The position numbers and the translations under genes are program-made. From Bugula neritina (lineage: Eukaryota > Animalia > Bryozoa), in the NCBI GenBank assembly GCA_964035545.1, contig OZ037765.1, positions 27,713,504 through 27,777,503 on the forward strand: a stretch of DNA of 64,000 nt, read 5' to 3'. Each line of letters begins with the position of its first letter. Positions within the stretch are counted from its first letter, which is position 1. Positions 19,710 through 40,061 of the stretch are shown piece by piece. A model generated the notes under the pieces. The model saw nothing but the letters and a program-made list of their open reading frames with translations, had not been told where the DNA came from and did no database searches.

Positions 19710-20170
19710 CTTACATTAACTCAGTGTGGTATATTTAAGAGTGTTGCCATTAGCAAATCTTACGGAATCATATGGGCGCCATTATGCCGAGATTGGTACC
19801 GCGAGTTTATATGAGTTATAAAGGAAAAATTTTGCCACTTTTGTTATTTTATTTTTTTTCTATTTTATGTGTACATTTTTTTTAATTTTTTTTATTGGTA
19901 AAGTTTTTAAACACATTTTTAATGCACATAAAATTAAAAGAAAAATTAAAACTCAATCGTGCACATAAATACAAAGCTATAAAGTTAAAGCTTCGCTGTG
20001 ATTTTAATGTGAATATGAATTGAATAATGCTTGCAATAACCATTATACACAAAATACGTTACAGTTGCTATAAATGTAAGACTAGTTAATTGGATGCAAA
20101 TAGGCACGGTAATACTACTTAATTTATGCAATTTTTGAATTTTGTAGTAAATATTTGGCATGTATATATA

Positions 20171-20262
<92 letters not shown>

Positions 20263-20876
20263 TATAATATTATTATATGTATATATATATATATATATTA
20301 TTTATAATATCATTATATATATAATGTATATAATTTAATATATAATATAATAATATATTATATATGATATTATTATATATATAATATAATACATAATATA
20401 ATAATATATTATATATATTATATATGATATTATTATATATATAATATATATATATAATATAATATATATTATAATATTATAATATATATATATATATATA
20501 TATTATATATGATATTATTATATATATAATATATTAATGTATAATATATTATTATAATATATATATATATTGTGGTGGCTCGTGGAGCTACCAGCAACAC
20601 AATACGCAAGGTTGCGTATTGACCCGGAACAATGTATTAGCCAATTAGCTAGGCTGTTTTATAAGTAATAGTAGCCGCTTCGCGCTACTAGCTCAGTTGA
20701 GGATAGTGCTGTAAACTAAATAGACGTGCGTATCATTACTGTTGTACATTGGATTTTTATTATGTATTCTTGTATTAAATATAACGATATCTACTCGACT
20801 TAACTGGTGAAGTTTCTCTAGTGTTAAATAGACTCTCTTGGTGGCACATCAACCCTAAATCTGAAAACTATAACAG

Positions 20877-20894
20877 TGGTGGCAGCGGTGGGAT
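20877..20894 (+). promoter_or_regulatory. Primer binding site complementary to the tRNA-Leu 3' end (also at 32830-32847)
   Basis: TGGTGGCAGCGGTGGGAT, one base after the LTR end. Confidence 0.85.
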
Positions 20895-20908
20895 AGTGTA
20901 TATCAAAG

Positions 20909-21775
20909 ATGGAGACTGAAAACGCTAGAATGCAACCACCCCCAGTAGAAGGTGAGCGTAGAAATGCTGTTAATCCTGTGAATTATGAAGGAGAAGAAGC
21001 TTATAGACATTGCTTGAAAGCTCCCACCTTTACTGGGTCGGAAGATGTCGAACAATTTATACAAGAATTTAGAGAGGTAATGGAAGTTGCTCAATGGCCG
21101 CATAGAGTGGCCCTCATTCAATTGCGGAGAGCGGTGACGGAGCAAGCCAAGCCGTACGGAGTGGGAACGGACGTAGACGGCATACTGGCTGCGCTGCGGG
21201 CCCGTTTTGGCACCTCCGTCATAGACGCTAGGACCAAGCTGGAGAGATTGTGCCGCACCCCGCGGACCTCGCTGCAAGAACATGCCGCGACGGTGAAGAA
21301 GCTGGCGCAGATTGCATATAGCGATCTGCCCGCACAACACCAAGAGCGTTACACTTATGACGCCTTTGTCCAGTCCCTAAACGACCTGGGCCTAGACCAT
21401 CACCTACGAGCTAAAGGGATAACCAGAATAGAGGATGCCCTGAAGGCTGGAGAAGCTTACCTGTTGGCTACCCAAATGCATCGAGCACAACGGAACCCAC
21501 CAGTAGTTGGAGTCAGCGCTGCTCGGGCTACGACAGGCTCCGAAGCCCTCCCGCTAGAAGCCGAAGTGGACCGTATGGTAGAGATGCTGGGACAATTGGT
21601 GACCATTCTGGCCGGTGCTGGCCCCGGCCAGGCCTTGCGGATGCCCCCAACACCTGTGGGGCAAGGCTGGAGTAGCGCTGATCAGGACCAGGGACAGAAA
21701 GGACGACCCCAATACCAGGGGGCGTTAAACTGTCACGGCCCGCGGACACTCTCCCTCCCCGCGGGCCGCAACTAA
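20909..21775 (+). CDS. gag: Gag (copy 1)
   Basis: Capsid-like LKAPTFTGSEDVEQFIQEF...W; first ORF after the PBS. No intact CCHC knuckle. Confidence 0.9.
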   Translation: METENARMQPPPVEGERRNAVNPVNYEGEEAYRHCLKAPTFTGSEDVEQFIQEFREVMEVAQWPHRVALIQLRRAVTEQAKPYGVGTDVDGILAALRARFGTSVIDARTKLERLCRTPRTSLQEHAATVKKLAQIAYSDLPAQHQERYTYDAFVQSLNDLGLDHHLRAKGITRIEDALKAGEAYLLATQMHRAQRNPPVVGVSAARATTGSEALPLEAEVDRMVEMLGQLVTILAGAGPGQALRMPPTPVGQGWSSADQDQGQKGRPQYQGALNCHGPRTLSLPAGRN

Positions 21776-24700
21776 AGGAGTATGGTGGAACACGCCGTCG
21801 TCTGTCCGTACGGACACGGCGGAACATTCTACCCGAGTGGCAGGTACCACGCAGGACTAGTAGGCCCGCACAACGGCCCAGTACCTTTTCCCTGCCACTC
21901 GCTAACCGGTTTCACCGGTTACCTCGGGAAGAGGAGCCCGCCACTGAAATGGAGCCAGAAGGCCCAGTGGAGAGGCCCAAACCCCGCCGGCACCAACCTC
22001 GCCGCCGGAAGCCCCGTAAACCACGGGTAAAACCCCCGCCGTCCTGTCAAACCAGGACAGCACATGCGGGGGGGGTGAAAGTACAACCACATGGAGAGAG
22101 CTATTTCCTACCCGGAAAGGTGGCCGGCAATGCCGTCACTTTCCTGCTCGACTCCGGTTGTACTACCAACCTTCTCAGTCGTAGAATCTTTGAGGCACTG
22201 CCCCGCCGGGACAGGGATAGAGTACGACCGTATACTGGAGAACATGGCACCCTGGCAGACGGGTCATGTATCCCCTTTTATGGTATTATCGAGCTCCCTG
22301 GGCGTGTCCGAGATCAGGCTGTACAGGAGACCTTCATCATAGGTCAATTGGAGGAAGATGCTATCCTCGGAATGCCCTTCTTGAAGCAACACCAGTGCCG
22401 AATAGATTTCAGTAAATCGGTGGTGCTGATGGGCGGGCGAGAACTCGCCTGTGTGGATAAGTTTGGGCGTCCTCTGGTGGGCGGTGTTCAGGTAGTTCGA
22501 AACTGCACCGTACCCGGACGCTCCAGAGCTACTATCCACTGCCGAGTGAACAGCAACCGGATAGCCAGGCTCGGGGTCGTTGAAAGCGCGCACGAAAAGA
22601 TCCAACTCGCCAGTAGTTTAAACCGACTAACTGAGCGAGGGGAGGTCTTAGTGCAGTGCGTCAACCCCTTTACCGAGCCCATTGAGCTCCCAGCTGGGTC
22701 AATGCTGGGCCGGTTCCATTCCGTCCAGGAGGAGGACGTGGGCCCGTCGCTGGGTGACGCGACGGAGGCACCCCCTCGACACCCTATTCAGGGACGAGGG
22801 GCAGTCCCAACACATCTCCGGGAGTTATACGAAACAGCCAATGGCGGCTGCGCGAGTAACAGAGAGCGCCAAGCTATGGCCAAGTTACTACGCGACTACG
22901 GTGATGTGTTCAGCAGCGGAGAGCATGACGTGGGACTGACTGGAGTTGTCAGACACGAAATACCGCTGACTGCAGGGACAGTCCCTGTCCGGCAGCCCAC
23001 GCGCAGGCTGGGGCCGGAGAAAGAGAAGGAGGTTAGCCGACAAGTACGGGATCTTCTGGACCGGGGACTGATAGAGCCCGCCCATAGTGCGTGGAGCTCG
23101 CCAGTCGTACTGGTCCGGAAGAAAGACGGCAGTTGGCGGTTCTGTGTGGACTACCGCAAACTCAATAGCGTAACCATACAGGACGCCTACCCTCTACCTC
23201 GTATTGACGAGTCATTGGACGCCCTAGCCGGCAGCAAGTACTTCAGTACGTTAGACTTGCTAAGCGGCTATTGGCAAGTTCCTCTGAGTCCCGACGCCCA
23301 GGAAAAAGCGGCGTTTATCACACGGGACGGGTTGTGGAAGTGGAAGGTGCTGCCCTTCGGGTTAACCTCCGCCCCAGCCACCTTCCAGAGGCTGATGGAA
23401 CAAGTCCTTAGCGGACTCCATTGGAAGACACTGCTGGTCTACCTCGATGATGTCATCGTAATCTCTCCAGACTTCGAGACACATGTCAGTCGTCTGCAGG
23501 AGGTTTTCGAGAAACTCCGAGGTGCCGGTCTTAAGCTCAAACCTTCCAAGTGCGCTCTATTGCAGCCGGAGGTCAAGTACCTGGGGCACGTTGTCGGTCG
23601 AAACGGCGTGGCAACGGATCCCGAAAAGGTGCGGGCAGTAGAAGACTGGGTCACCCCCCAAGACTTGACCGGACTCCGGGCTTTCTTGGGGCTGGTAGGG
23701 TATTACAGGCAATACATACCAGACTTTGCGGGCATAGCCCAGCCGTTAAACCGGCTTACCGCAAAGGGAGTGACGTGGCAGTGGACTCCAGTCGAACAAG
23801 AAGCGTTCGACCGCCTCAAGGGCTGCCTACTAACGGCGCCCATCTTGGCCTACCCAGACCCCACTCTGGAGTACATCCTAGACACGGACGCCAGTGACCA
23901 GAATGTTGGCGCTGTGTTGTCACAAGTGCAGGAAGGCCGAGAGGTAGTAGTAGCCTACTACAGCAAGTCTCTCTCTCCCGCTGAACGAAATTACTGCACT
24001 ACCCGCAAGGAGCTGCTGGCAGTAATCAAGTCAGTGAAACACTTCAGACCATACCTATATGGCAGGAAGTTCCGGCTGCGTACGGATCATGCCTCGCTGA
24101 TCTGGTTGTGCAGGAGAGCAGAGCCCTCTAGTCAGGTCGCCCGGTGGCTCGAAATCCTAGCTGAATTCTCATACCGGATCGAACATCGACCGGGCAAGAG
24201 ACACAGCAATGCGGATGGGTTGAGTCGCCGACCTGACGGAGGTTGCAAACAGTGTCTCAACATCGAGAGGAGGGATGGAGGTCCCCCACGATGCGAGTTG
24301 GAGACGCTGGCTCATCACGGAGCATCATTTGACTGGGATCAAGGTCAACTCAGGCAAAGAGTTGATGAGTCCCCGGAGGATGTACAAAACCTCCGCGCCA
24401 ACCCTGTACTGGCCGGTAATGTTCGAGAGCTGAAGAAGCTCCAAGAAGAGCTGCCTGGAGTCGTGGCAGACATATACCGGGCCAAAAGGGAAGGGCGACG
24501 ACCCAGCGAGGAACGCATACGACAGGGATGCGCCGAGTTCCGGCTATACTGTCAGCGTTGGGACTCGCTGCGGATCGGGCAGGATGGGTTGCTAACCATC
24601 TCTCTAGCTGCCAGCGGCAGACACCCGGAAAGGAAGAGGGTAGTCTGCCCCACAGCCATCCGCCGTGAGTTGATTTGGGATACTCACAAGCAGGCCCACG

Positions 24701-26346
24701 CAGGGGTCAAGCGAGTGATATCCAAATTACGACTCCGGTGGTATTGGCCGCAGATGGAGCGTGACGTCCGGCTCAGAGTCAAACAGTGTGAGATCTGCCA
24801 GGCCAGTAAGCATAGCCGCCCCCCTGGTGAAGCAGGACGGCGGAGGCTATATGCTGGTAGGCCCTGGCAAGTAGTCGCTGTAGACCTGGTCGGACCCATG
24901 CCCCTGACCCCCAGAGGCAATAATTGGATCCTAGTACTAACCGACCACTTTACTAGGTGGGCGGATGCTCTGGCTATTCCAGATGCATCAGCCCCGACAG
25001 TGGCCAGGGCGCTAGACCAACATGTATTCTGTTATTTTGGGCTCCCCGAACAGATACACTCTGATCAAGGCGCTCAATTCCAGTCTCAACTGATGAGCGA
25101 CCTTTGCCGCCTCTGGGGAGTAAATCAGAGCAGGACCACCCCCTACCACCCTCAAGGTAACGGGGTGGTGGAGCGCAACAACCGGATGCTAGGTGATGCA
25201 CTCCGGAGTCTCCTCCTTGGACGAGGTCAAGAGGAATGGGATACGGTATTGCCGCAAGTCATGCGTGCATACCGTAGCACCCCACACACCAGTACTGGTG
25301 AGACCCCAAACCTCTTGATGCTCGGGAGAGAGACTCGTGTCCCTGACCATCTCACCTATCACGTTCCAGAGCAAGATAACTCAGTCCACGAGTATGCCAG
25401 TGAACTAGTGGAACGGATGAAGGCCGCACACGATATACTGCGCCAACAGCAGTGGAAGGTGCGGCACGAAGATTCCGATGAAACACCTCTCTATCAAAGG
25501 GGAGATAAGGTGTGGATGGTCAATTACCGTAGGCGCCGCGGACAGGCTGATAAGCTGAAGCCTAAGTTCGTAGGCCCCTACGTGGTCGTCGAGGCTATGC
25601 CCAATCATACGTACAAGATTGAGCGCTCAGGACAGGTGTCTATCCAGAATGAGTCTCGCTTGAAACCGTATTGGGCTAGCCCTGACGGAGTGGGAGAAGC
25701 CCCCCCGTTGTTAGAGCCCAGGAGGCAGACAACGACGCGCGGGCGACGGCGGCATGGACCTGAATACGAAGTGGTCATACCGCGGGAGGAAAACTTGGTG
25801 AGAGAGGAGCGGCAGCTTTTGTCAACAGAAGCGTGTCCGCCACCGCCAAGTCTAATTCCATCACTTCCAGAAACCGAGCCGGTTCCGGAAGTGCAAACCC
25901 CCACGGAGGGAGGGGCTCCATCCGGAGAACAAGAAGAGGTGACCACTAACGGTGAAGTAGAGACGCCATTAGAGGCCCCTACTAATGAACCGGCAAGCGT
26001 GTCACCCCCCCTAGAAAGGGGACCGCGTACGAGGAAACCCCCACCGTATTTGAAAGACTTCATATGTGACTGCATTAGAAGCGGCGCACATGAAAGTCTA
26101 GAGGAAAACCGTACGATATGTTGGAGTTGTGAACCCCACGCAAATATCAACTTTTGCGAGGGCGGAATAGTGGGAGGAATTAATGCGCGTAAAGCAAATA
26201 GTTCCGACCTCGTGTCTCAGAAACGATGCTCAGCCTTTTCTTATGCTGACATCGCCCAAGGCAGACGTATCTCACAACCAGCTCCAACCTTACCAAGAAC
26301 GTTGAGTATGGACATTAATACCGAGTTCCCAGGTAAGCCAGTATAA
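21724..26346 (+). CDS. pol: Pol polyprotein (protease, RT, RNase H, integrase), probably entered by -1 frameshift at 21724-21730; first in-frame Met at 21949
   Basis: LLDSGCT protease, YLDD RT, DTDAS...TDH RNase H, HHCC and D-D-E integrase (VDL, SDQG, VER), GPY motif. The frame is open upstream across the gag stop. Confidence 0.95.
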   Translation, partial: VKLSRPADTLPPRGPQLKEYGGTRRRLSVRTRRNILPEWQVPRRTSRPAQRPSTFSLPLANRFHRLPREEEPATEMEPEGPVERPKPRRHQPRRRKPRKPRVKPPPSCQTRTAHAGGVKVQPHGESYFLPGKVAGNAVTFLLDSGCTTNLLSRRIFEALPRRDRDRVRPYTGEHGTLADGSCIPFYGIIELPGRVRDQAVQETFIIGQLEEDAILGMPFLKQHQCRIDFSKSVVLMGGRELACVDKFGRPLVGGVQVVRNCTVPGRSRATIHCRVNSNRIARLGVVESAHEKIQLASSLNRLTERGEVLVQCVNPFTEPIELPAGSMLGRFHSVQEEDVGPSLGDATEAPPRHPIQGRGAVPTHLRELYETANGGCASNRERQAMAKLLRDYGDVFSSGEHDVGLTGVVRHEIPLTAGTVPVRQPTRRLGPEKEKEVSRQVRDLLDRGLIEPAHSAWSSPVVLVRKKDGSWRFCVDYRKLNSVTIQDAYPLPRIDESLDALAGSKYFSTLDLLSGYWQVPLSPDAQEKAAFITRDGLWKWKVLPFGLTSAPATFQRLMEQVLSGLHWKTLLVYLDDVIVISPDFETHVSRLQEVFEKLRGAGLKLKPSKCALLQPEVKYLGHVVGRNGVATDPEKVRAVEDWVTPQDLTGLRAFLGLVGYYRQYIPDFAGIAQPLNRLTAKGVTWQWTPVEQEAFDRLKGCLLTAPILAYPDPTLEYILDTDASDQNVGAVLSQVQEGREVVVAYYSKSLSPAERNYCTTRKELLAVIKSVKHFRPYLYGRKFRLRTDHASLIWLCRRAEPSSQVARWLEILAEFSYRIEHRPGKRHSNADGLSRRPDGGCKQCLNIERRDGGPPRCELETLAHHGASFDWDQGQLRQRVDESPEDVQNLRANPVLAGNVRELKKLQEELPGVVADIYRAKREGRRPSEERIRQGCAEFRLYCQRWDSLRIGQDGLLTISLAASGRHPERKRVVCPTAIRRELIWDTHKQAHAGVKRVISKLRLRWYWPQMERDVRLRVKQCEICQASKHSRPPGEAGRRRLYAGRPWQVVAVDLVGPMPLTPRGNNWILVLTDHFTRWADALAIPDASAPTVARALDQHVFCYFGLPEQIHSDQGAQFQSQLMSDLCRLWGVNQSRTTPYHPQGNGVVERNNRMLGDALRSLLLGRGQEEWDTVLPQVMRAYRSTPHTSTGETPNLLMLGRETRVPDHLTYHVPEQDNSVHEYASELVERMKAAHDILRQQQWKVRHEDSDETPLYQRGDKVWMVNYRRRRGQADKLKPKFVGPYVVVEAMPNHTYKIERSGQVSIQNESRLKPYWASPDGVGEAPPLLEPRRQTTTRGRRRHGPEYEVVIPREENLVREERQLLSTEACPPPPSLIPSLPETEPVPEVQTPTEGGAPSGEQEEVTTNGEVETPLEAPTNEPASVSPPLERGPRTRKPPPYLKDFICDCIRSGAHESLEENRTICWSCEPHANINFCEGGIVGGINARKANSSDLVSQKRCSAFSYADIAQGRRISQPAPTLPRTLSMDINTEFPGKPV

Positions 26347-26363
26347 GTCTTGTATTCCTATTC

Positions 26364-27437
26364 ATGGAAACGGGCTCGATGCCAGTAGATTCTGAACTAA
26401 TTCAGCAGATTGAATCAGAATTACTGGGAACCACGTTTCATGTGAATGACGATGAAGACACTGTAATGGCCGATGGTCTGTTAGACCTGGAGCTAGACAC
26501 TGTTCTTGGTCAGTCCACACATGATTCATCAGTTCCTCGAGTGCATTCCAAAAGCAGTGACTCTCAGGCTAGCAACGGTCGACAGTCACTAGAATTAGGT
26601 TGTAAAGATCCACCGCGATCTAACACTAATTCTACTTTTGTAGACACACTCGCGCCCGTCTCTCCGGGCATGCCTTCTCTAGAGATGGCGTGGGACTCAG
26701 AGCCGGCCCCAACAACTTCTACCACCAGGCAACTGCCACCCCAGTTGGAAGCAACCTCCAACTGGATTACCCCTGCCACAGAGAGAGAGATCAGGACCCA
26801 TCAAGGAGGTGAGAGTAATCGTGAATGCAATCTCTGCCAACAGCGATTCACGACCCACCGCAGACTAAAAGTACACTTGCCGCAACACTACGTCACCACT
26901 TTCTGCCCTTGCGGAGAATATAGCTACAATCGTGATTACCTGTTGCGGCACCAACGTACTATGCAGTGTTATCAAGGGCATGTCTATGAAGTAGACGAAT
27001 CATCCTATCCTGCCTTTCTCAACGCCATCAAACCACTCATCACTGACTCAGCTCGGCTATCTCGCCTGGAGCAAGGCTTTCCTTCCCCGCGGCCCATCAT
27101 CTCTGGAGCCGCAGATAAACCTACCCAGTCTGCTAACTCTCCACCCCACAGTCCTCTACGCATGCCGCATACCTTTCCTCGTGTCGTACTACAGAGGGTA
27201 GACACAAATGCATATACACTCCCTCCTCCCCTTCCATCCTCCGAGCGGAAAAGACACAGACAGCCGACTTCCTCTCGCTCGTCCCCCTGGGCCCGCAACC
27301 TACGTGAAGTAGAAGCTAGGGCGCACGACTTGGAGCAAGAAGTGTACAGGCTGGCCCCACGAGTACAGGCTGCATCCAGTGAACTCAAATACTTACAGGA
27401 GTCTATTAAACGCATGAAGCGTGCGGCCCGCAGTTAA
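26364..27437 (+). CDS. Retrotransposon ORF3: zinc-finger / PxVxL / coiled-coil protein, not env-like
   Basis: 357 aa between the pol stop and the PPT. CNLC-x12-HLPQH, CPC-x12-HQRTMQC, PRVVLQRVD and C-terminal heptads. Same length and open in copy 2. Confidence 0.9.
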   Translation: METGSMPVDSELIQQIESELLGTTFHVNDDEDTVMADGLLDLELDTVLGQSTHDSSVPRVHSKSSDSQASNGRQSLELGCKDPPRSNTNSTFVDTLAPVSPGMPSLEMAWDSEPAPTTSTTRQLPPQLEATSNWITPATEREIRTHQGGESNRECNLCQQRFTTHRRLKVHLPQHYVTTFCPCGEYSYNRDYLLRHQRTMQCYQGHVYEVDESSYPAFLNAIKPLITDSARLSRLEQGFPSPRPIISGAADKPTQSANSPPHSPLRMPHTFPRVVLQRVDTNAYTLPPPLPSSERKRHRQPTSSRSSPWARNLREVEARAHDLEQEVYRLAPRVQAASSELKYLQESIKRMKRAARS

Positions 27438-28012
27438 CTCGAGTCTACCTACAACTCCATACTACTCATTCCCCTACCTCTCTGTGGCATTCCCTACCGT
27501 AATGGTGGCACGTACTCTACATGTAGATAGGACCTTATCTTGCTTATTACTTAGTGTGCACGTTATATATACCTGTATATTTTTTATCAGTTGTTGTTTT
27601 TTTTGTATATACTTTTATACTGTTCTCTTACCCCCCCACAACGAAGTATACGTTTTTTATACGAATTTTATTTTATCAGAAAGTGGGCTTTCTGCTGGAG
27701 GGGGCAGTGTGGTGGCTCGTGGAGCTACCAGCAACACAATACGCAAGGTTGCGTATTGACCCGGAACAATGTATTAGCCAATTAGCTAGGCTGTTTTATA
27801 AGTAATAGTAGCCGCTTCGCGCTACTAGCTCAGTTGAGGATAGTGCTGTAAACTAAATAGACGTGCGTATCATTACTGTTGTACATTGGATTTTTATTAT
27901 GTATTCTTGTATTAAATATAACGATATCTACTCGACTTAACTGGTGAAGTTTCTCTAGTGTTAAATAGACTCTCTTGGTGGCACATCAACCCTAAATCTG
28001 AAAACTATAACA

Positions 28013-28991: not shown

Positions 28992-28994
<3 letters not shown>

Positions 28995-29066
28995 GGTGGC
29001 TCGTGGAGCTACCAGCAACACAATACGCAAGGTTGCGTATTGACCCGGAACAATGTATTAGCCAAT

Positions 29067-32000
29067 AGACCATGTAAAACTCAGCCAATCAGCGAAGTGT
29101 ACCAGGTCAATGTCTTACCATTGTAACTGATATAAAATTCTGCAAGTTCAATTGCAAAATGCATGCTTCTAAAAGCTAGTTGTGCAACTTTTTTTTCATG
29201 CATTATTTAATTTCATATCTTAAATTGATGACTCTTGAAATGATTTTTTAAAATGTCTAAATTAAGTGTTTATAAAACGCAAATAAAAATTGCATGTCTA
29301 GAAAAATGACCTGGTACACTTTTGCAACTTAAGGCCAATTATTACATAACTGCCAGCTTAGTAGTTATTTGTTGTTGCAGCTTGAATGGGTTATTGTTTA
29401 GCATTGGAAGCTTGCAGTAAACATCTGTGAATTTGGTACATGACTTTGATTGGCTGGTTTTTGAATGGCCCTTTAGTATATGCATCTGGATGGCTGGGTA
29501 GCGTGGACTCCGCCTACATCTAGCTAATGTACAGTAGCCAATCCACAGTAGTATTACAAAATTTCTGTTTAACAAATGAAATATTCTGGTCATTTGTTTT
29601 GTACTTTACAATAGTAAATATTCTATTCAACTAGAATTTTATTGTATGTAAGCCATGGGAACTACTAAGAGGTTAAATCAACCACCCATGCTGGTAATAT
29701 TGTTGCTCGCAGTAATAGCAAGTCCGCAGTAATAGCAAGTCCACACCGTATAAATATACACATAAGCTAGTATGTGCAGCTTATGAATGCTGAAATGACC
29801 CCATTTCTTACTTTCAACTTGAAAAAAATTGTATTACATATTCTGCCACTTCTGCACCAGGAACTTGTTTTCCTTTTAAATTTTGAAAATAGTAGTCAGT
29901 TTCTATAGCAGTCAACATCCACAACGTAAGCTTTCAAATAAACTATAAATATATGGTAGCATATTGGCTTTGAAAGCTCAGAGGGATGTTCAGCTTCTCT
30001 CTTGTTGGAAAAACTATTAGATTGTTCAGTTCTCTTGCTAAAATATCTAATGTGTTTTTGAAGGTTTTGCTTGCTAGCAATCTAGAGATATAAAAAAGGC
30101 CAGCAAGTATTTGAAACTGTAAACCTTGACGCAGCTTCATCAAAGCCAATAAAAGTTCATCTTGTCTTGTTAACTTTTTTTGGAGAATAAGAACTTTCAT
30201 CTTCGGACATATAAATCTAAATATAGAAAATAAAGAATGAAAATTAAATTATGATTCAAATTATAATGTATGTGCTAAATAAATTTTGTGCTTAGTTTGT
30301 ATTCATTCAGCAGTTTTTACCCTCTGGTAAGTAGCTTCAGTTATATTTTGCAACAACTATGAAGTTCAAGAACTGCTAGCTGAAGGCTTGACCCAATATA
30401 TCACCATCCAAACAGAATGTAATGTGTGTCAACATGTGTTACGTAATACTGTAACAGTACATGGTAAGCTACTTGTATGAATACATGCTTTGAATGAAGT
30501 TATGAGTTTAAACAAATACTGTGGACAAACAATTATTACTTCATTCTATAATTATACTATAACTAATTCAAACCCATATTATTTCTAGAATAGCATTTAA
30601 TAATGTTTGTGAATAAGTGAAACTAGTAACCAAGGTAAACCATTTTAGTTTTAAACACTGAGTTAGTTTCAGCTAAAAATTAGATTAGGAGGCCACTTTT
30701 GATAAGCTTTAAAATAACCAAGGAAAATCTAAGTCAAAACAATTTACTTTTCCTAGAGAAAGTGAGTCAATTTGTCCACAAATAAAATACTGCTGCTTGT
30801 TTAAATAAAACCCTAAACTAAATAATTCAAAGCATACAAATGTCCACTGTGGTATTTATGAATATCTTACATAAAACAACATCTTTAATAAAAAATGTAT
30901 GAATGATGTACTCACACTGCAACAAATTTAATTAAAATGACAGTTTTACTACACATCAAATTTAATCAATGTAGAAATTTTAGCATAGTGAGACTTGCAT
31001 TGTTTATTTGTAATAAACCATAGTCTATCTTTGCAATAAGAAAATCATGATTTTCACCTTGCTAAAAAATAGTATAGAGAACGTGTAGGTATTTCAGTAT
31101 AAAATTTAGTTTGCTCATCTGTAGTGGTGAAAGTTTTAAAAACTTTTACTTTTTCAATAGCTGCTTTTTGTTTAAACGCGGATCTTTTTGAGCCTTTTCT
31201 TCCAACCTTTGATTTTCGTCTATCAATAGAATGTGCAGATCTTTTTTTCTGAGTAGTTGATGATTCTGGTTACTCAGTTACTTCTGATGAAGTCTGACTA
31301 TGAGGATGGCTGTCAGATGAGTTCTGTTGCTCTATATCAGCTGACTCTGTTGATAACGTTTTCTGTTCGCTTCCTTCACATGTTTCATTAAAACCACTGT
31401 TTTTTGTTCGTCTTACATTATATGCTTTAGTGCATTGGTAACCCAAATGAAGGGTTGGAGTTGGATTTTGCTCAGTGGGCTGACCATCCTTATGATTATG
31501 ATTATGATAGTCTGCTATGCTCTCTGTAATCTACAGCCACCATTGGTGACTGATGAAATTTAGAATTTGAAGTAAAAATGTGTTATTTTTACCTGTGCCA
31601 TTTTATAGAAATCTATATCTAGCTTTTATAATATAATATTCTTGTAATTTTTCATCATAGCAAGAACTAAATTACATTGTTTCCACACTTAATATTTCAT
31701 ATACTTATAGTTTATTTGAAAGCTTACGTTGTTTATTGTGGATGCAGTTGACTGCTGCAGAAACTGACTACTATTTTCAAAATTTAAAAGGAAAACAAAT
31801 TCTTGGTGCAGAAGTGGCAGAATATGTAATACAATTTTTTTCAAATTGTAAGTAAGAAATGGGGTCATTTCAGCATTTATAAGCTGCACATAATAGCTTA
31901 TGTGTATATTTATACGGTGTGGACTTGCTATTGGTGTGGACTTGCTATTACTGCGAGCAACAATATTACCAGCATGGGTGGTTGATTTAACCTCTTAGTA

Positions 32001-32596
32001 GTTCCCATGGCTTACATACAATAAAATTCTAGTTGAATAGAATATTTACTATTGTAAAGTACAAAAAAAATGACCAGAATATTTCATTTGTTAAACAGAA
32101 ATTTTGTAATACTACTGTGGATTGGCTACTGTACATTAGCTAGATGTAGGTGGAGTTTACACTACCCAGCCATCCAGATGCATATACTAAAGAGCCATTC
32201 AAAAACCAGCCAATCAAAGTCATGTACCAAATTCACAGATGTTCACTGCAAGCTTCCAATGCTAAACAATAACCCATTCAAGCTGCAACAACAAATAACT
32301 ACTAAGCTGGCAGTTATGTAATAATTGGCCTTAAGTTGCAAAAGTGTACCAGGTCATTTCTCTAGACATGCAATTTTTATTTGCGTTTTATAAACACTTA
32401 ATTTAGACATTTTAAAAAATCATTTCAAGAGTCATCAATTTAAGATATGAAATTAAATAATGCATGAAAAAAAAGTTGCACAACGAGCTTTTAGAAGCAT
32501 GCATTTTGCAATTGAACTTGCAGAATTTTATATCAGTTACAATGGTAAGACATTGACCTGGTACACTTCGCTGATTGGCTGAGTTTTACATGGTCT
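29067..32596 (-). mobile_element. ISL2EU (PIF/Harbinger-related) derivative with ~0.89 kb inverted arms and a decayed transposase
   Basis: AGACC...GGTCT ends inserted at AATT of the LTR with a 2-bp AT TSD. Minus-strand remnants: THAP tail KDGQPTEQNPTPTLHLGY (~31490-31438) and HTH_Tnp_4-like KLTRQDELLLALMKLRQGLQFQILAGLF (ORF 30200-29943). Confidence 0.85.
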
Positions 32597-32861
32597 ATTA
32601 GCTAGGCTGTTTATGAGTAAGAGTAGCAGCTTCGCGCTACTAGCTCAGTTGAGGATAGTGCTGTAAATTAAATAGACGTGCGTATTATTACTGTTGTATA
32701 TTAGATTTTATTATGTATTCTTGTATTCAAATATAACGATATCTACTCGACTTAACTCGGTGAAGTTTCTCTAGTGATAAATAGACTCTCTTGGTGGCAC
32801 ATCGACCCTAAATCTGGAAATCATAACAGTGGTGGCAGCGGTGGGATAGTGTACATCAAAG

Positions 32862-33728
32862 ATGGAGACTGAAAATGCTAGAATGCAACCACCCCCAGTA
32901 GAAGGTGAGCGTAGAAATGATGTTAATCCTGTGAATCGTGAGGGAGAAGAAGCTTATAGATATTGCTTGAAGGCTCCCACCTTTACTGGGTCAGAGGATG
33001 TCGAACAGTTTATACTAGAATTTAGAGAGGTAATGGAGATTGCTCAATGGCCGCATAGAGTGGCCCTTATCCAATTGCGGAGAGCGTTGACGGAGCAAGC
33101 CAAGCCGTACGGAGTGGGAACGGACGTAAACGGGATACTGGCTGCGCTGCGGGCCCGTTTTGGCATCTCCACAATAGACGCTAGGACCAAGCTAGAGAGA
33201 TTGTGCCGCACACCGCGGACCTCGCTGCAAGAACATGCCGCGACGGTGAAGAAGCTGGCGCAGATTGCGTATAGCGATCTGCCAGCACAACACCAAGAGC
33301 GTTACACCTATGACGCCTTTGTCCAGTCACTAAACGACCTGGGCCTACACCATCAGCTCCGAGCAAAAGGGATAACCAGGATAGAGGATGCCCTGAAGGC
33401 TGGAGAAGCTTACCTGTTGGCTACCCAAATGCATCGAGCACAACGGAACCCACCAGTAGTTGGAGTCAGCGCTGCCAGGGCTACAACAGGCCCCGAAGCC
33501 CCCCCGCTGGAAGCCGAAGTGGACCGTATGGTAGAGATGCTGGGACAGCTGGTAACCATTCTGGCCGGCGCTGGCCCCGGTCAGGCCCTGCGGTTGCCCC
33601 CAACACCTGTGGGGCCAGGCTGGAGTAGTGCTGGTCAAGACCATGGACAGCAAGGACGACCCCAATACCAGGGGGCGTTAAACTGTCGCGGCCCGCGGAC
33701 GCTCTCCCTCCCCGCGGGCCGCAACTGA
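32862..33728 (+). CDS. gag: Gag (copy 2)
   Basis: 288 aa, colinear with copy 1 Gag. Confidence 0.9.
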   Translation: METENARMQPPPVEGERRNDVNPVNREGEEAYRYCLKAPTFTGSEDVEQFILEFREVMEIAQWPHRVALIQLRRALTEQAKPYGVGTDVNGILAALRARFGISTIDARTKLERLCRTPRTSLQEHAATVKKLAQIAYSDLPAQHQERYTYDAFVQSLNDLGLHHQLRAKGITRIEDALKAGEAYLLATQMHRAQRNPPVVGVSAARATTGPEAPPLEAEVDRMVEMLGQLVTILAGAGPGQALRLPPTPVGPGWSSAGQDHGQQGRPQYQGALNCRGPRTLSLPAGRN

Positions 33729-36700
33729 AGGAGTATGGTGGGACACGCCGTCGTCTGTCCGTACGGACACGACGGAACACTCCACCCGAGTGGCAGGTAC
33801 CACGCAGGACTAGTAGGCCCGCACAACGGCCGAGTACCTTCTCCCTGCCACTCACCAACCGGTTCCACCGGTTACCTCGGGAAGAGGAGCCCACCACTGA
33901 GATGGAGCCAGAAGGCCCAGTGGAGAGCCCCAAACCCCGCCGGCACCAACCTCGCCGCCGGAAACCCCGTAAACCACGGGTGAAACCCCCGCCGTCCTAC
34001 CAATCTAGGACAGCACATGCGGGGGGGGGGGTGAAAGTACAACCACATGGAGAGAGCTATTTCCTACCCGGAAAGGTGGCCGGCAACGCCGTCACTTTCC
34101 TGCTCGACTCCGGTTGTACTACCAACCTTCTCAGTCGTAGAGTCTTTGAGGCACTGCCCCGCCGGGACAGGGATAGAGTACGACCGTATACGGGGGAACA
34201 TGGCACCCTGGCAGACGGGTCATGTATTCCCTTTTATGGTATTATCGAGCTCCCTGGGCGTGTCCGAGACCAGGCTGTACAGGAGACCTTTGTCATAAAT
34301 CAACTGGAGGAAGATGCTATCCTCGGAATGCCCTTCTTGAAGCAACACCAGTGCCGAATAGACTTTAGCAAGTCGGTGGTGCTGATGGGCGGGCGAGAAC
34401 TCGCCTGTGTGGATAAGTTTGGGCGTCCTCTGGTGGGCGGTGTTCAGGTAGTTCGAAACTGCACCGTGCCCGGACGCTCCAGAGCTACTATCCACTGCCG
34501 AGTGAACAGCAACCGGATAGCCAGGCTCGGGGTCGTTGAAGGCGCGCACGAAAGAATCCAACTCGCCAGTAGTTTAAACCGACTAACTGAGCGAAGGGAG
34601 GTCTTAGTGCAGTGTGTCAACCCCTTTACCGAGCCCATTGAGCTCCCAGCTGGGTCAATGCTGGGCCGGTTCCACTCCGTCCAGGAAGAGGACGTGGGCC
34701 CGTCGCTGGGTGACGCGACGGAGGCACCCCCTTGACACCCTATTCAGGGACGAGGGGCAGTCCCAACACATCTCCGGGAGTTATATGAAACAGCCTGTGG
34801 CGGCTGCGCGAGCAACAAGGAACGCCAAGCTATGGCGAAGTTGCTACGCGACTACGGTGATGTGTTCAGTAGCGGAGATCATGACGTGGGGCTGACTGGA
34901 GTTGTCAGACACGAAATACTGCTGACTGCAGGGACAGTCCCTGTCCGGCAGCCCACACGCAGGCTGGGGCCGGAAAAAGAGAAGGAGGTTAGCCGACAAG
35001 TACGGGATCTTCTGGACCGCGGCCTCATAGAGCCCGCCCATAGCGCGTGGAGCTCACCGGTCGTACTGGTCCGGAAGAAAGACGGCAGTTGGCGGTTCTG
35101 TGTGGATTACCGCAAACTCAACAACGTAACCATACAGGACGCCTACCCTCTACCTCGTATTGACGAGTCATTGGACGCCCTGGCCGGCAGCAGGTACTTC
35201 AGTACGTTAGACTTGCTGAGCGGCTATTGGCAAGTCCCTCTGAGTCCCGACGCCCAGGAGAAAGCGGCGTTTATCACACGGGACGGGTTGTGGAAGTGGA
35301 AGGTGCTACCCTTCGGGTTAACCTCCGCCCCGGCCACCTTCCAGAGGCTGATGGAGCAAGTCCTTAGCGGGCTCCATTGGAAGACGCTGCTGGTCTACCT
35401 CGATGATGTCATCGTGATCTCCCCAGACTTCGAGACGCATGTCAGTCGTCTACAGGAGGTCTTTGAGAGACTCCGAGGTGCCGGTCTTAAGCTCAAACCT
35501 TCCAAGTGCGCTCTATTGCAGCCAGAGGTTAAGTACCTGGGGCACGTTGTCGGTCGAAACGGCGTGGCAACGGATCCCGAGAAGGTACGGGCAATAGAAG
35601 ACTGGGTCACCCCCCAAGACTTGACCGGACTCCGGGCTTTCTTGGGGCTGGTAGGGTATTACAGGCAATACATACCAGACTTTGCGGGCATAGCACAGCC
35701 GTTAAATCGGCTCACCGCAAAGGGAGTGACGTGGCAGTGGACACCAGTCGAACAAGGAGCATTCGACCGCCTCAAGGGCTGCCTACTAACGGCGCCCATC
35801 TTGGCCTACCCAGACCCCACTCTGGAGTACATCCTCGACACGGACGCCAGTGACCAAAATGTTGGCGCTGTGCTGTCACAAGTGCAGGAAGGCCGAGAGG
35901 TAGTAGTAGCCTACTACAGCAAGTCTCTTTCACCCGCTGAACGAAATTACTGCACTACCCGCAAGGAGCTGCTGGCAGTAATCAAGTCAGTGAAGCACTT
36001 CAGACCATACCTATATGGCAGGAAGTTCCGGCTGCGTACGGATCATGCCTCGCTGATCTGGTTGTGCAAGAGAGCAGAGCCCCCTAGTCAGGTCGCCCGG
36101 TGGCTCGAAATCCTAGCTGAATTCTCATACCGGATCGAACACCGACCGGGCAAGAGACACAGCAATGCGGATGGATTGAGTCGCCGACCTGACGGAGGTT
36201 GCAAACAGTGTCTCAACATCGAGAGGAGGGATGGAGGTCCCCCGCGATGCGAGTTGGAGACGCTGGCTCACAACGGAGCACCGTTTGACTGGGACCAGGG
36301 TCAACTCAGGCAGGGAGTTGATGAGTCCCCGGAGGGTGTACAAAACCTCCGCGCCAACCCTGTACTGGCCGGTAATGTTCGAGAGCTGAAGAAGCTCCAA
36401 GAAGAGCTGCCTGGAGTCGTGGCAGACATATATCGGGCCAAAAGGGAAGGGCGACGACCCAGCGAGGAACGCATACGACAGGGATGCGCCGAGTTCCGGC
36501 TATACTGTCAGCGTTGGGACTCGCTGCGGATCGGGCAGGATGGGTTACTAACCATCTCTCTAGCCGCCAGCGGCAGACACCCGGAGAGGAAGAGGGTAGT
36601 CTGCCCCACGGCCATCCGCCGTGAGTTGATTTGGGATACTCACAAACAGGCCCACGCAGGAGTCAAGAGAGTGATATCCAAATTACGACTCCGGTGGTAT

Positions 36701-38305
36701 TGGCCACAAATGGAGCGTGACGTCCGACTCAGAGTCAAACAGTGTGAGATCTGCCAGGCCAGTAAGCATAGCCGCCCCCCTGGTGAAGCAGGACGGCGGA
36801 GGCTATATGCTGGTAGACCCTGGCAAGTAGTCGCTGTAGACCTGGTCGGACCCATGCCCCTGACCCCCAGAGGCAATAATTGGATCCTAGTACTAACCGA
36901 CCACTTTACTAGGTGGGCGGATGCTCTGGCTATCCCAGATGCGTCAGCCCCAACAGTGGCCAGGGCACTAGACCAACATGTATTCTGTTATTTTGGGCTT
37001 CCCGAACAGATACACTCTGATCAAGGCGCTCAATTCCAGTCTCAACTGATGAGCGACCTTTGCCACCTCTGGGGAGTAAATCAGAGCCGGACCACCCCCT
37101 ACCACCCTCAAGGTAACGGGGTGGTGGAGCGCAACAACCGGATGCTAGGTGATGCGCTCCGGAGTCTCCTCCTTGGACGAGGCCAAGAGGAATGGGATAC
37201 GGTGTTGCCGCAAGTCATGCGTGCATACCGTAGCACCCCACACACCAGTACTGGTGAGACCCCAAACCTCTTGATGCTCGGGAGAGAGACTCGTGTCCCT
37301 GACCATCTCACCTACCACGTTCCAGAGCAAGACAACTCGGTTCACGAGTATGCCAGTGAACTAGTGGAACGGATGAAGGCCGCACACGATATACTGCGCG
37401 AACAGCAGTGGAAGGTGCGGCACGAAGATTCCGATGAGCCACCTCTCTACCAAACGGGAGATAAGGTGTGGATGGTCAATTACCGTAGGCGTCGCGGACA
37501 GGCTGATAAACTGAAGCCTAAGTTCGTAGGACCCTACGTGATCGTCGAGGCTATGCCCAATCATACGTACAAGATTGAGCGCTCAGGACAGGTGTCTATC
37601 CAGAATGAGTCTCGCTTGAAACCGTATTGGGCTAGCCCCGACGGAGTGGGAGAAGCCCCCCCGTTGTTGGAGCCCAGGAGGCAGACAACAACGCGCGGGC
37701 GACGGCGGCATGGACCTGAATACGAAGTGGTCATACCGCGGGAAGAAAACTTGGTGAGAGAGGAACGGCAGCTTTTGTCAACAGAAGCGTGTCCGCCACC
37801 GCCAAGTCTAATTCCATCACTTCCAGGAACCGAGCCGGTTCCAGAAGTGCAAACCCCCACGGAGGGAGGGGCTCCATCCGGAGAACAAGAAGAGGTGACC
37901 GCTAACGGTGAAGTAGAGACACCATTAGAGGCCCCTACTAACGAACCGGCGAGCGTGTCACCCCCCCTAGAAAGGGGACAGCGTACGAGGAAACCCCCAC
38001 CATATTTAAAAGACTTCGTATGTGACTGCATTAGAAGCGGCACGCATGAAAGTCTAGGGGAAAACCGTACGGTAAAATGTTGGAGTTGTGAACCCCACGC
38101 AAATATCAACTTTTGCGAGGGCGGAATAGTGGGAGGAATTAATGCGCGTAAAGCAAATAGTTCCGACCTCGTGCCTCAGAAACGATGCTCAGCCTTTTCT
38201 TATGCTGACATCGCCAAAGGCAGACGTATCTCACAACCAGCTCCAATCTTACCAAGAGCGTTGAGTATGGACATTAATACCGAGTTCCCAGGTAAGCCAG
38301 TATAA
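33677..38305 (+). pseudogene. pol: Pol (copy 2) with a premature stop between protease and RT
   Basis: TGA at 34733-34735 where copy 1 has CGA; otherwise open and colinear (ORF-track 33902-34735 and 34832-38305). Confidence 0.9.
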
Positions 38306-38322
38306 GTCTTGTATTCCTATTC

Positions 38323-39396
38323 ATGGAAACGAGCTCGATGCCAGTAAATTCTGAACTAATTCAGCAGATTGAATCAGAATTACTGGGAACCACGTTTCAT
38401 GTGAATGACGACGAGGACACTGTAATGGCCGACGGTCTATTAGACCTGGAGCTAGACACTGTTCTTGGTCAGTCCACACATGATTCATCGGTTCCTCGAG
38501 TGCATTCCAAAAGCTGTGACTCTCAGGCTAGTAACAGTCGACAGTCACTAGAATTATGTTGTAAAGATCCACCGCGATCTAACAATAATTCTACTTTTGT
38601 AGACACACTCGCGCCCGTCTCTCCGGGCATGCCTTCTCTAGAGATGGCGTGGGACCCAGAGCCGGCCCCAACAACTTCTACAACCAGGCAACTGCCACCC
38701 CAGTTGGAAGCAACCTCCAACTGGATTACCCCTGCCACAGAGAGAGAGATTAAGACTCATCAAGGAGGTGATGGTAACCGCGAATGCAACCTCTACCAGC
38801 AGCGATTTACAACCCACCGCAGGCTGAAAGTACACTTGCCGCAGCATTACATCACCACGTTCTGCCCTTGCGGAGAATATAGTTACAATCGTGATTACCT
38901 ACTGCGTCACCAACGCACTATGCAGTGTTATCAAGGACACGTCTATGAAGTAGACGAATCATCATATCCCGCATTTCTCAACGCCATCAAACCCCTCATC
39001 ACTGACCCAGCTCGGCTATCTCGCCTGGAGCAAGGCTTTCCCTCCCCGCGACCAATCATCTCTGGATCCGCAGAGAAACCTATACAGTCAACTAACTCTC
39101 CACCTCACAGTCCTCTACGCCACCCGCATACCTTCCCCCGTGTCGTACTACAGAGGGTAGACACGAAGGCGTATACACTTCCTCCTCCCCTTCCATCCGC
39201 AGAACGGAAAAGACACAGACAACAGACTTCCTCTCGTTCGTCCCCCTTGGCCCGCAACCTACGTGAAGTAAAAGCTAGGGCACACAACCTAGAGCAAGAA
39301 GTGTACAGACTGGCCCCGCGGGTGCAGGCTGCATCCAGTGAACTCAAATATCTACAGGAGTCTATTAAACGCATGAAGCGTGCGGCCCGCAGTTAA
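38323..39396 (+). CDS. Retrotransposon ORF3 (copy 2); first finger has C>Y
   Basis: 357 aa, colinear with 26364-27437; CNLY in place of CNLC. Confidence 0.88.
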   Translation: METSSMPVNSELIQQIESELLGTTFHVNDDEDTVMADGLLDLELDTVLGQSTHDSSVPRVHSKSCDSQASNSRQSLELCCKDPPRSNNNSTFVDTLAPVSPGMPSLEMAWDPEPAPTTSTTRQLPPQLEATSNWITPATEREIKTHQGGDGNRECNLYQQRFTTHRRLKVHLPQHYITTFCPCGEYSYNRDYLLRHQRTMQCYQGHVYEVDESSYPAFLNAIKPLITDPARLSRLEQGFPSPRPIISGSAEKPIQSTNSPPHSPLRHPHTFPRVVLQRVDTKAYTLPPPLPSAERKRHRQQTSSRSSPLARNLREVKARAHNLEQEVYRLAPRVQAASSELKYLQESIKRMKRAARS

Positions 39397-39966
39397 CATG
39401 AGTCTATCTCCAACTCCATACTACTCTTCCCCTACCTCTCTGTGGCATTCCCTACCGTTATGGTGGCACGTACTCTACATGTAAATAGGACCTTCTCTTA
39501 CATATTACACATTGTGCACGTTTTATATATATACCTGTATATTTTATCGGTTGTTTTTTTTTGTATATACTTTTATACTGTTCTCTCTCTCCACAACGAA
39601 GTATACGTTTTTTTTATGTGAATTATATTTTTATCAGAAAGAGGGCTTTCTGCTGGAGGGGGCAGTGTGGTGGCTCGTGGAGCTACCAGCAACACAATAC
39701 GCAAGGTTGCGTATTGACCCGGAACAATGTATTAGCCAATTAGCTAGGCTGTTTATGAGTAAGAGTAGCAGCTTCGCGCTACTAGCTCAGTTGAGGATAG
39801 TGCTGTAAATTAAATAGACGTGCGTATTATTACTGTTGTATATTAGATTTTATTATGTATTCTTGTATTCAAATATAACGATATCTACTCGACTTAACTC
39901 GGTGAAGTTTCTCTAGTGATAAATAGACTCTCTTGGTGGCACATCGACCCTAAATCTGGAAATCAT

Positions 39967-40061
<95 letters not shown>

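What the first reader, a model, noticed from the sequence alone, without database searches (positions are those of the whole stretch)
27177..27203. TRIM28-like HP1-binding PxVxL motif in ORF3
Seen: PRVVLQRVD lies in a proline-rich, probably disordered stretch and is unchanged in copy 2 (39136-39162) while neighbouring residues vary. Known: PxVxL binds the HP1 chromoshadow dimer, and the TRIM28/KAP1 site reads PRVSLERLD. Inference: with zinc fingers and a coiled coil, ORF3 could tether to, titrate or recruit HP1. No chromodomain is evident in this integrase, so ORF3 could substitute for one. A 5-residue motif can also occur by chance.
Basis: partly seen in the sequence, partly recalled or inferred. 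Interest (0 to 1): 0.8.

Follow-up and report, generated by a model that had tools for sequence, protein, structure and literature searches.

The report
Retrotransposon accessory protein with HP1 motif
A Ty3/gypsy jumping gene in this probably animal genome carries an extra zinc-finger protein with a short sequence, kept across its closer relatives, that likely docks onto the heterochromatin protein HP1 and would let the element engage the host's silencing machinery directly.

Summary
PRVVLQRVD is at 27177-27203, in ORF3 of a young Ty3/gypsy LTR retrotransposon, and recurs at 39136-39162. The homologue test it proposed passes in part. PxVxL is in 19 of 25 close sequences (window included; 2.2 expected) as an island in an indel-rich, predicted-disordered linker. 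It drifts to LxVxL in the next clade (strict PxVxL 0 of 17), is sporadic further out, and is lost in one sister lineage. The conserved positions (V0, L+2, basic +4, hydrophobic +5) match the published HP1 grammar. The flanks fail the strict Drosophila consensus (2 basic residues, not 3-6). Co-folding with a stand-in HP1 chromoshadow dimer gave weak support only (0.59 vs 0.03). ORF3 is under purifying selection (dN/dS 0.14) and has a folded two-finger core, a basic patch and a predicted coiled-coil helix. HP1 binding is about 60% likely. A chromodomain-substitute role is less likely, because ORF3 is a separate ORF and both copies sit in (TA)n tracts. I found no such element in print.

The parts
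27177..27203 (+). Candidate HP1 chromoshadow-binding motif PRVVLQRVD (ORF3 residues 272-280 from the ATG at 26364), copy 1
39136..39162 (+). Same motif in copy 2
26364..27437 (+). ORF3, copy 1: 357-aa accessory protein; ATG 18 nt after the last base of the pol stop, in another frame; homologues start at the equivalent Met
   Evidence: dN/dS 0.137 against copy 2
26724..27092 (+). Folded core of ORF3 (residues 121-243): one C2H2 finger, one atypical C-x-C...H...C finger, packed with extra helices
   Evidence: pLDDT >90; core alone pLDDT 94.8, pTM 0.86; Pfam zf-C2H2 below cut-off; only weak matches to tandem finger proteins, Z<=3.5
27246..27260 (+). Basic patch RKRHR, likely nuclear localisation signal (inferred); as conserved as the motif
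27285..27431 (+). C-terminal 49-residue helix, likely coiled coil
20571..20875 (+). 5' LTR of copy 1 (TG...CA, 305 nt), identical to the 3' LTR; preceded by a TA-rich tract
20877..20894 (+). Primer-binding site; tRNA-Leu-like (assignment recalled, not from a call)
20909..21775 (+). ORF1, gag by position (no Pfam match)
21682..26346 (+). pol: PR-RT-RNase H-integrase (gypsy order), no chromodomain
27697..27707 (+). Polypurine tract
27708..28012 (+). 3' LTR of copy 1, followed by a TA-rich tract
28992..39970 (+). Copy 2 of the element (internal part 95.2% identical to copy 1): 5' LTR interrupted at 29067-32596, pol broken by an in-frame stop ending the ORF at 34735, ORF3 38323-39396 with the first finger's second Cys changed, 3' LTR 39666-39970; (TA)n on both sides

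Best explanation
PRVVLQRVD is a conserved short linear motif in the predicted-disordered linker of a retrotransposon accessory protein, and it likely binds the HP1 chromoshadow dimer, which would make ORF3 an element-encoded adaptor between DNA and heterochromatin. Shown: the motif, its retention across related ORF3s at variable distance from the core, purifying selection on ORF3, and the layout (acidic N-terminus, two-finger core, motif, basic patch, long helix). Predicted: a folded core, a disordered motif, and a weak HP1 co-fold. Inferred: nuclear import by the basic patch, self-association by the helix, nucleic-acid binding by the fingers, and docking of V274 into the HP1 dimer groove with R278 as the +4 contact. 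The most likely job is on integrated copies: the fingers hold the protein on element or AT-rich DNA and the motif engages HP1 there, setting the element's chromatin state. Whether that relieves or imposes silencing is untested. I put HP1 binding at about 0.6. Given binding, I put a regulator of integrated copies at about 0.5, an integration tether at 0.3 and a free decoy at 0.2.
For: PxVxL outside the core in 19 of 25 close sequences (window included), 2.2 expected; with basic +4 and hydrophobic +5 in 17 of 25, 0.8 expected. A motif-like 8-mer in 32 of 41 homologue linkers, 18-33 residues after the core; V at 0 in 30 of 32, L at +2 in 30, R/K at +4 in 24, I/V at +5 in 28 (templates chosen after seeing the data). 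The next clade keeps the site as LxVxL, a known HP1 variant (PMC7465937, passages). A basic +4, a hydrophobic +5, conservation inside disorder and shifting positions are the marks of HP1 ligands in PMC12526061 (passages and section 19). The motif has no secondary structure in the monomer model. dN/dS: ORF3 0.137, core 0.061, coil 0.093, linker 0.241. Co-folding of residues 255-295 with a stand-in chromoshadow dimer (L002) gave weak support, 0.59 against best control 0.03; runs share at least 66% of contacts, partner pLDDT at least 52. The mark was reached by 51 of 78 solved complexes and 2 of 108 mismatches, but at 0.60 or under by only 5 of the 78 and by all 4 mismatches that passed. Like complexes are solved, so the pass may be from memory.
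Against: The strict Drosophila consensus matches only 1 of 25 close sequences and fails at this site in the window (T at -4, F at -3). Most sequences carry 2 basic residues between -4 and +4 (20 of 32; 3 in only 1), where the paper asks for 3-6, though it notes that Pro-type motifs often lack the -3/-4 basics and that non-Drosophila motifs may differ. Strict PxVxL is 0 of 17 in the middle group and 2 of 30 in the far group (2.1 expected). One lineage nested near the close clade (P0077, P0086) keeps core and helix but has no motif. Position +1 is hydrophobic in 31 of 32 and +3 is Q in 24 of 32, more than HP1 is known to need, which hints at another or an added reader. The close sequences are related copies and not independent. 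In the MAFFT register the motif window (0.59 mean modal frequency) beats the linker mean (0.42) but only ties with the basic patch. The host's own HP1 was not seen, because no genome is held.
Confidence: 0.45

Rival explanations
1. ORF3 is an integration tether, a trans-acting stand-in for the chromovirus chromodomain: it rides with the pre-integration complex and uses the motif to bring it to HP1-rich heterochromatin.
For: The integrase has no chromodomain. 4 of 180 homologues (P0072, P0154, P0178, P0179) begin with a string like this element's integrase tail in frame with the finger core, 0 expected by shuffling (pattern made after seeing them; P0072 also by BLAST, E 9e-4 in a small set). 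Precedents are Ty5 integrase-Sir4 and the chromodomain integrases (PMC8909793, passages). Both copies lie in repeat-rich DNA.
Against: ORF3 is a separate ORF in another frame. No fusion to a full pol was found among the best 150 of 210 hits of a search with no length limit, nor in two searches of longer proteins (weak negatives). The P0154 tail match alone is not significant (E 0.20), and in-frame tails may come from decayed copies. Both copies have ATAT directly on both sides inside TA tracts, and (TA)4+ runs make up 1203 of 64000 bases. Sequence preference explains the two sites without HP1.
Confidence: 0.2
2. The motif is a real binding site, but for another beta-strand-reading domain, such as a BET or YEATS-family ET domain, SUMO, or an unknown partner.
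For: Hydrophobic +1 and Q at +3 are conserved beyond HP1's known needs. The middle clade reads P-L-R-hydrophobic, which recalls the PLK(I/L)R BET-binding tail of MLV integrase (PMC4027182, passages). The strict HP1 flank rules fail.
Against: ET ligands have four hydrophobic residues interspersed with basic ones (PMC7442819, passages). That pattern is absent from the window's ORF3 and was found in 1 of 181 sequences; PL[KR][ILV][KR] in 0 of 181; no acid-flanked SUMO-type or PP1-type site at this place in the window. Basic +4 with hydrophobic +5 fits HP1 better.
Confidence: 0.22
3. The stretch is structural: a strand that pairs with the same strand of another ORF3 chain or packs on the finger core, with no host partner.
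For: A run of hydrophobic residues (0, +1, +2, +5) is conserved; a monomer model cannot show self-pairing.
Against: With a 76-sequence alignment the model leaves it unstructured at pLDDT about 54 while the core exceeds 90. Its distance from the core varies from 18 to 33 residues. A sister lineage folds the same core without it.
Confidence: 0.07
4. Chance or inherited neutral similarity: a five-residue match in a family of related copies.
For: PxVxL in 13.7% of shuffles. A degenerate pentamer is in about half of the fly proteome (PMC12526061). Copy 2 is uninformative, and far relatives show no excess of PxVxL.
Against: It persists while the flanks take indels and substitutions at about 50% overall identity, and across a 27-row clade with 100/99 support in P or L form. 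The extended form [PL]xVxLx[RK][LIV] arises in 0.07% of linker shuffles (pattern post hoc).
Confidence: 0.06

Closest known systems
HP1 chromoshadow ligands with PxVxL/LxVxL motifs (KAP1/TRIM28 HP1 box; Drosophila HP1a Access Codes)
   Same: Hydrophobic -2, V at 0, L at +2, basic +4, hydrophobic +5, in a disordered region and conserved among homologues (against PMC12526061, PMC7465937). KAP1 has R-V at 487-488 in its box (PMC6660772).
   Different: Encoded by a transposon, not the host. Only 2 basic residues, and T/F at -4/-3, fail the strict fly consensus. No RING, B-box, PHD or bromodomain, so 'TRIM28-like' holds for the motif alone.
Ty5 integrase-Sir4 tether and chromovirus chromodomain integrases
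   Same: An LTR retrotransposon product that would engage silent chromatin (PMC8909793, passages).
   Different: There the targeting part is within the integrase. Here it is in a separate ORF3, would bind HP1 rather than Sir4 or methylated H3, and comes with zinc fingers and a helix. No targeting role is shown.
MLV integrase tail binding the BET ET domain
   Same: A short motif in a disordered tail of a retroelement protein that docks a host chromatin reader (PMC4027182, passages).
   Different: The W-x7-PLK(I/L)R consensus is not met; a different reader is predicted; separate ORF.
VANC anti-silencing proteins of Arabidopsis VANDAL transposons
   Same: A transposon-encoded accessory DNA-binding protein that acts on the element's own chromatin (seen only in a meeting report, PMC12859917, passages).
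   Different: Those are plant DNA transposons; no homology was tested or seen, and no HP1 motif is mentioned in the passages read.
Ty3/gypsy elements with an additional ORF3 (env of errantiviruses; additional ORFs of bdelloid and plant elements)
   Same: Third ORF between pol and the 3' LTR.
   Different: This ORF3 matches no env family in Pfam and is a nuclear-type finger protein. The additional-ORF papers were seen only as search listings.

Membership tests
HP1 chromoshadow ligands (PxVxL/HAC) | Hydrophobic -2, V/I at 0, aliphatic +2 | tested here: met
HP1 chromoshadow ligands (PxVxL/HAC) | Basic residue at +4; hydrophobic at +5 favoured | tested here: met
   R278 and V279; R/K in 24 of 32, I/V in 28 of 32; rule from PMC12526061
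HP1 chromoshadow ligands (PxVxL/HAC) | Lies in a disordered region and is conserved among homologues | tested here: met
   pLDDT about 54, no secondary structure; 19 of 25 close sequences. Holds for the close and, as LxVxL, the middle clade only.
Drosophila HP1a Access Code, strict form | Full flank consensus and 3-6 basic residues between -4 and +4 | tested here: not met
   T at -4 and F at -3; 2 basic residues; 1 of 25 close sequences match anywhere. The paper limits the rule to Drosophila.
HP1 chromoshadow ligands (PxVxL/HAC) | Central-Val-dependent binding in the chromoshadow dimer groove | tested here: inconclusive
   Weak co-folding support, 0.59 vs 0.03, stand-in HP1, no interface given, no mutant run; the binding itself needs a bench test
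Ty3/gypsy LTR retrotransposon | TG...CA LTRs, PBS, PPT, pol order PR-RT-RH-IN | tested here: met
Chromovirus | Chromodomain at the integrase C-terminus | tested here: not met
   No Pfam chromodomain in pol at E<=0.1; very divergent chromodomains could be missed
ET-domain ligands (BET/YEATS) | Four hydrophobic residues interspersed with basic ones, or W-x7-PLK(I/L)R | tested here: not met
   against PMC7442819 and PMC4027182
TRIM28/KAP1 family | RING-B-box-coiled coil plus PHD-bromodomain | tested here: not met
   Pfam on ORF3 gives only sub-threshold C2H2
DNA-binding tandem C2H2 proteins | Tandem canonical fingers that read DNA | tested here: inconclusive
   Finger 1 canonical, finger 2 atypical; best solved-structure sequence hit SALL3 E 1.9e-5 over finger 1 only; fold matches Z<=3.5, rmsd 2.4-3.8 over 50-57 residues for the finger rows
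A named gypsy clade (Mag, CsRN1, MolGy, PolGy) | RT/RNase H phylogeny with reference elements | not tested

The most novel reading that the evidence does not exclude
A widespread, undescribed family of gypsy ORF3 proteins uses a new two-finger fold plus a mobile HP1-binding motif to hijack HP1 directly. In some lineages the module is fused to the integrase tail like a chromodomain, and in others it is a free trans-acting ORF. That would make it an animal retrotransposon-encoded HP1 adaptor, for targeting or counter-silencing, of a kind my searches did not find in print.
Probability: 0.3. Interest if true: 0.8.

Novelty: new variant of a known kind. Interest (0 to 1): 0.55.

Why it matters
HP1 is the scaffold that hosts use to silence retrotransposons. 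Known element-side contacts with silent chromatin run through the integrase (Ty5-Sir4, chromodomains). An element-encoded protein that plugs into the HP1 dimer groove would be a direct handle on how animal LTR elements live in, aim at or resist heterochromatin, and a 15-residue peptide assay can test it. Independently of HP1, the search shows a family of at least 210 sequence clusters (E<=0.001, some of them generic finger hits) whose core has no named family and no close solved fold.

Tried and rejected
Copy-2 identity as evidence: rejected. Genomic context of homologues: not obtained. The search for related loci confirmed 0 of 81 candidate stretches in metagenome contigs, 0 of 43 and 0 of 1 in viral contigs, and only 2 short bacterial chance-level matches among 50 in genome contigs; the far-clade alignment was too diverse to search with. 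So, apart from the 4 tail-bearing sequences, that the homologues are ORF3s of LTR elements is inferred. Fused forms: none among 4593 candidates of 1566-4470 aa or 7983 of 640-2000 aa; weak negatives. Expression and splicing: the four runs laid are contigs. The one RNA run covers 23 of 30 bins, including 27089-27361, at depth about 2-3 there, with no splice joint listed; this does not show transcription. No clear acceptor precedes the ORF3 ATG. Fold of the core: no Foldseek match at E<=0.001 in PDB or BFVD, no VIA-align match at Z>=5 among 48,161 chains; this does not show a new fold. ESM Atlas: nearest clusters unnamed, 0.91-0.94, some fungal; leads only. A SALL-like AT-binding role was considered and not adopted, as the match covers a generic finger. 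Earlier findings of the scan: nothing returned. The TRIM28 peptide string: 0 papers. Literature searches for such an element listed nothing that describes it; (retrotransposon + HP1 + chromoshadow + ORF3) gave 0 papers. The library lacks most subscription journals and repeat databases. Supplements were not read; those of PMC12526061 hold the mammalian motif survey and bear on the flank rules.

Full report
Setting. The window is AT-rich DNA with two copies of a Ty3/gypsy LTR retrotransposon. Copy 1 runs 20571-28012 with identical 305-nt LTRs, a primer-binding site, a gag-position ORF without a Pfam match, a pol with protease, RT, RNase H and integrase but no chromodomain, and a third ORF. Copy 2 runs 28992-39970 and is 95.2% identical inside. 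Its 5' LTR is interrupted by an element with long inverted repeats and its pol is broken by a stop. Both copies have ATAT directly on both sides within TA tracts. No genome is held. The host is probably an invertebrate animal; this is inferred from the element and from a leucine-rich-repeat exon that recalls FBXL7 (recalled, not tested).

Observation. PRVVLQRVD is at 27177-27203 and 39136-39162. Taken alone it means little. PxVxL appears in 13.7% of 20,000 shuffles of ORF3, the copies differ at 24 of 357 residues, and 185 of 349 nine-residue windows are identical. A degenerate pentamer hits about half of the fly proteome (PMC12526061, passages).

ORF3 is a real gene. Between the copies dN/dS is 0.137 overall, 0.061 in the core, 0.241 in the linker and 0.093 in the helix; pol RT-integrase is 0.066 and ORF1 0.202. 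AlphaFold2 with 76 sequences folds residues 121-243 at pLDDT above 90, leaves 244-307 without structure (motif about 54), and ends in a 49-residue helix that matches generic coiled coils. The core alone reaches pTM 0.86 and matches only generic finger pairs, Z<=3.5.

Homologues. The word search gave 38 relatives at 34-73% identity; the full scan gave 210 clusters at E<=0.001, of which 150 were listed. None has a useful name (10 proteins looked up). In the alignment the motif is an island between indel-rich flanks. For counts, 122 of 181 sequences (180 hits plus the window) had a full core, and 72 remained after dropping those with under 60 residues behind the core or long repeated-core proteins. 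With core identity of 50% or more, PxVxL occurs in 19 of 25 (window included; 2.2 expected). With 40-50%, strict PxVxL is 0 of 17 (1.9 expected) but [PLC]xVx[LIV] is 13 of 17 (6.7 expected). Below 40%, PxVxL is 2 of 30 (2.1 expected), and the form with basic +4 and hydrophobic +5 is 6 of 30 (1.1 expected), at non-equivalent places. Re-registered without gaps, 32 of the 41 linkers that passed the filter (of 180 proteins) carry the site 18-33 residues behind the core: P or L at -2 in 31, V at 0 in 30, L at +2 in 30, R/K at +4 in 24, I/V at +5 in 28 (templates post hoc). On a core tree of 60 chosen rows the P and L forms fall in one 27-row clade (100/99), within which P0077 and P0086 lack the site and several others show a degenerate one. 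Many hits look like decayed copies, and the close ones are not independent.

Fit to the HP1 grammar. PMC12526061 (abstract, passages, section 19) defines HP1a ligands by a hydrophobic -2, V/I at 0, aliphatic +2, a nearly invariant basic +4, a favoured hydrophobic +5, disorder and conservation. All of these are met. Its flank exclusions and its 3-6 basic residues are not met: the window has T at -4, F at -3 and two basic residues, and the full expression matches 1 of 25 close sequences. The paper notes that Pro-type motifs often lack the -3/-4 basics and that other animals may differ. LxVxL is a recognised variant (PMC7465937, passages). The rival ET-ligand patterns (PMC7442819, PMC4027182, passages) are not met.

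Co-folding. An HP1 with both Pfam domains (L002) served as stand-in; chromoshadow domains in that set are 61-92% identical to it. Two copies plus ORF3 residues 255-295 scored 0.59 (runs 0.59, 0.66, 0.58) against 0.03 for the best of three controls, with at least 66% shared contacts and partner pLDDT at least 52; alignments were not used and no interface was given. The tool calls this weak. The mark was reached by 51 of 78 solved complexes and 2 of 108 mismatches, but at 0.60 or under by only 5 of the 78 and by all 4 mismatches that passed. Peptides and disordered chains are untested, and like complexes are solved, so the pass shows likeness and not binding.

Mechanism. I commit to an HP1-docking short motif on a nuclear zinc-finger adaptor (binding about 0.6). 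The acidic N-terminus, fingers, basic patch and helix read like a DNA-bound chromatin regulator, so action on integrated copies is my first choice; this step is inference. The chromodomain-substitute idea is second. For it: 4 of 180 homologues have an integrase-tail-like string in frame with the core, as a chromodomain would be. Against it: no full fusion was found, and both insertions are in (TA)n, where such runs make up 1203 of 64000 bases, which sequence preference can explain. Two sites are too few to settle this.

Novelty. Element proteins that grip silent chromatin or a chromatin reader are known: Ty5-Sir4 and chromodomains (PMC8909793), MLV-BET, and VANC anti-silencing (PMC12859917). 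Passages of an annelid LTR survey (PMC8556966) and of the Troyka paper (PMC12440569) mention no such ORF. Searches found no retrotransposon ORF with an HP1-binding motif, within the limits of an open-access library. I rate it a new variant of a known kind, interest 0.55: the motif survives the homologue test in the nearer clades, but binding and role rest on prediction.

Noticed in passing
window 20571, 28012, 28992, 39970: Both retrotransposon copies sit in TA tracts with ATAT on each side (an even-length target duplication, probably 4 nt). They are separated by about 980 nt of TA-rich DNA and lie between the arms of another repeat (19735-20177 and 40034-40380): possibly a (TA)n-targeting gypsy family.
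   Followed up: partly
window 29067-32596: A 3.5-kb element with about 850-nt inverted repeats (AG...CT ends, AT duplicated) interrupts the 5' LTR of copy 2; no ORF of 120 aa or more inside. Probably a non-autonomous DNA transposon.
   Followed up: no
P0102, P0118, P0122, P0136, P0148, P0151, P0169: A second recurring short motif, roughly G-Y/F-x-I-P-K/R-K/R, in 7 of 180 homologues (0.01 expected, pattern post hoc), all distant ones, mostly lacking the HP1-type site behind the core. Possibly a different host docking motif.
   Followed up: partly
window 26472-26498 (ORF3 N-terminus): An acidic DxLLDx[DE] motif is kept in 34 of 180 homologues and an RVPYK-like motif in 28 of 180, reaching into the middle clade; the latter is degenerate in the window. 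ORF3 seems to carry several short motifs; the first could be an activation-type motif.
   Followed up: partly
P0040, P0066: Proteins with two tandem copies of the finger core; in P0040 each is followed by a motif-like string and the protein ends in a helix-like stretch. Possibly duplicated or domesticated versions.
   Followed up: no
window 26330-26339: A strong splice-donor-like CAG|GTAAG just before the pol stop in both copies; another donor-like site at 20952 in ORF1. How ORF3 is expressed (reinitiation, splicing, internal start) is open.
   Followed up: partly
window 56715-57464 (-): A 249-aa leucine-rich-repeat exon ending at a stop, resembling the C-terminus of F-box/LRR proteins (FBXL7-like; resemblance recalled).
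   Followed up: no
window 12696-13293: A tandem array of 33-nt units, 13 copies listed, overlapping an open frame at 12736-13227.
   Followed up: no
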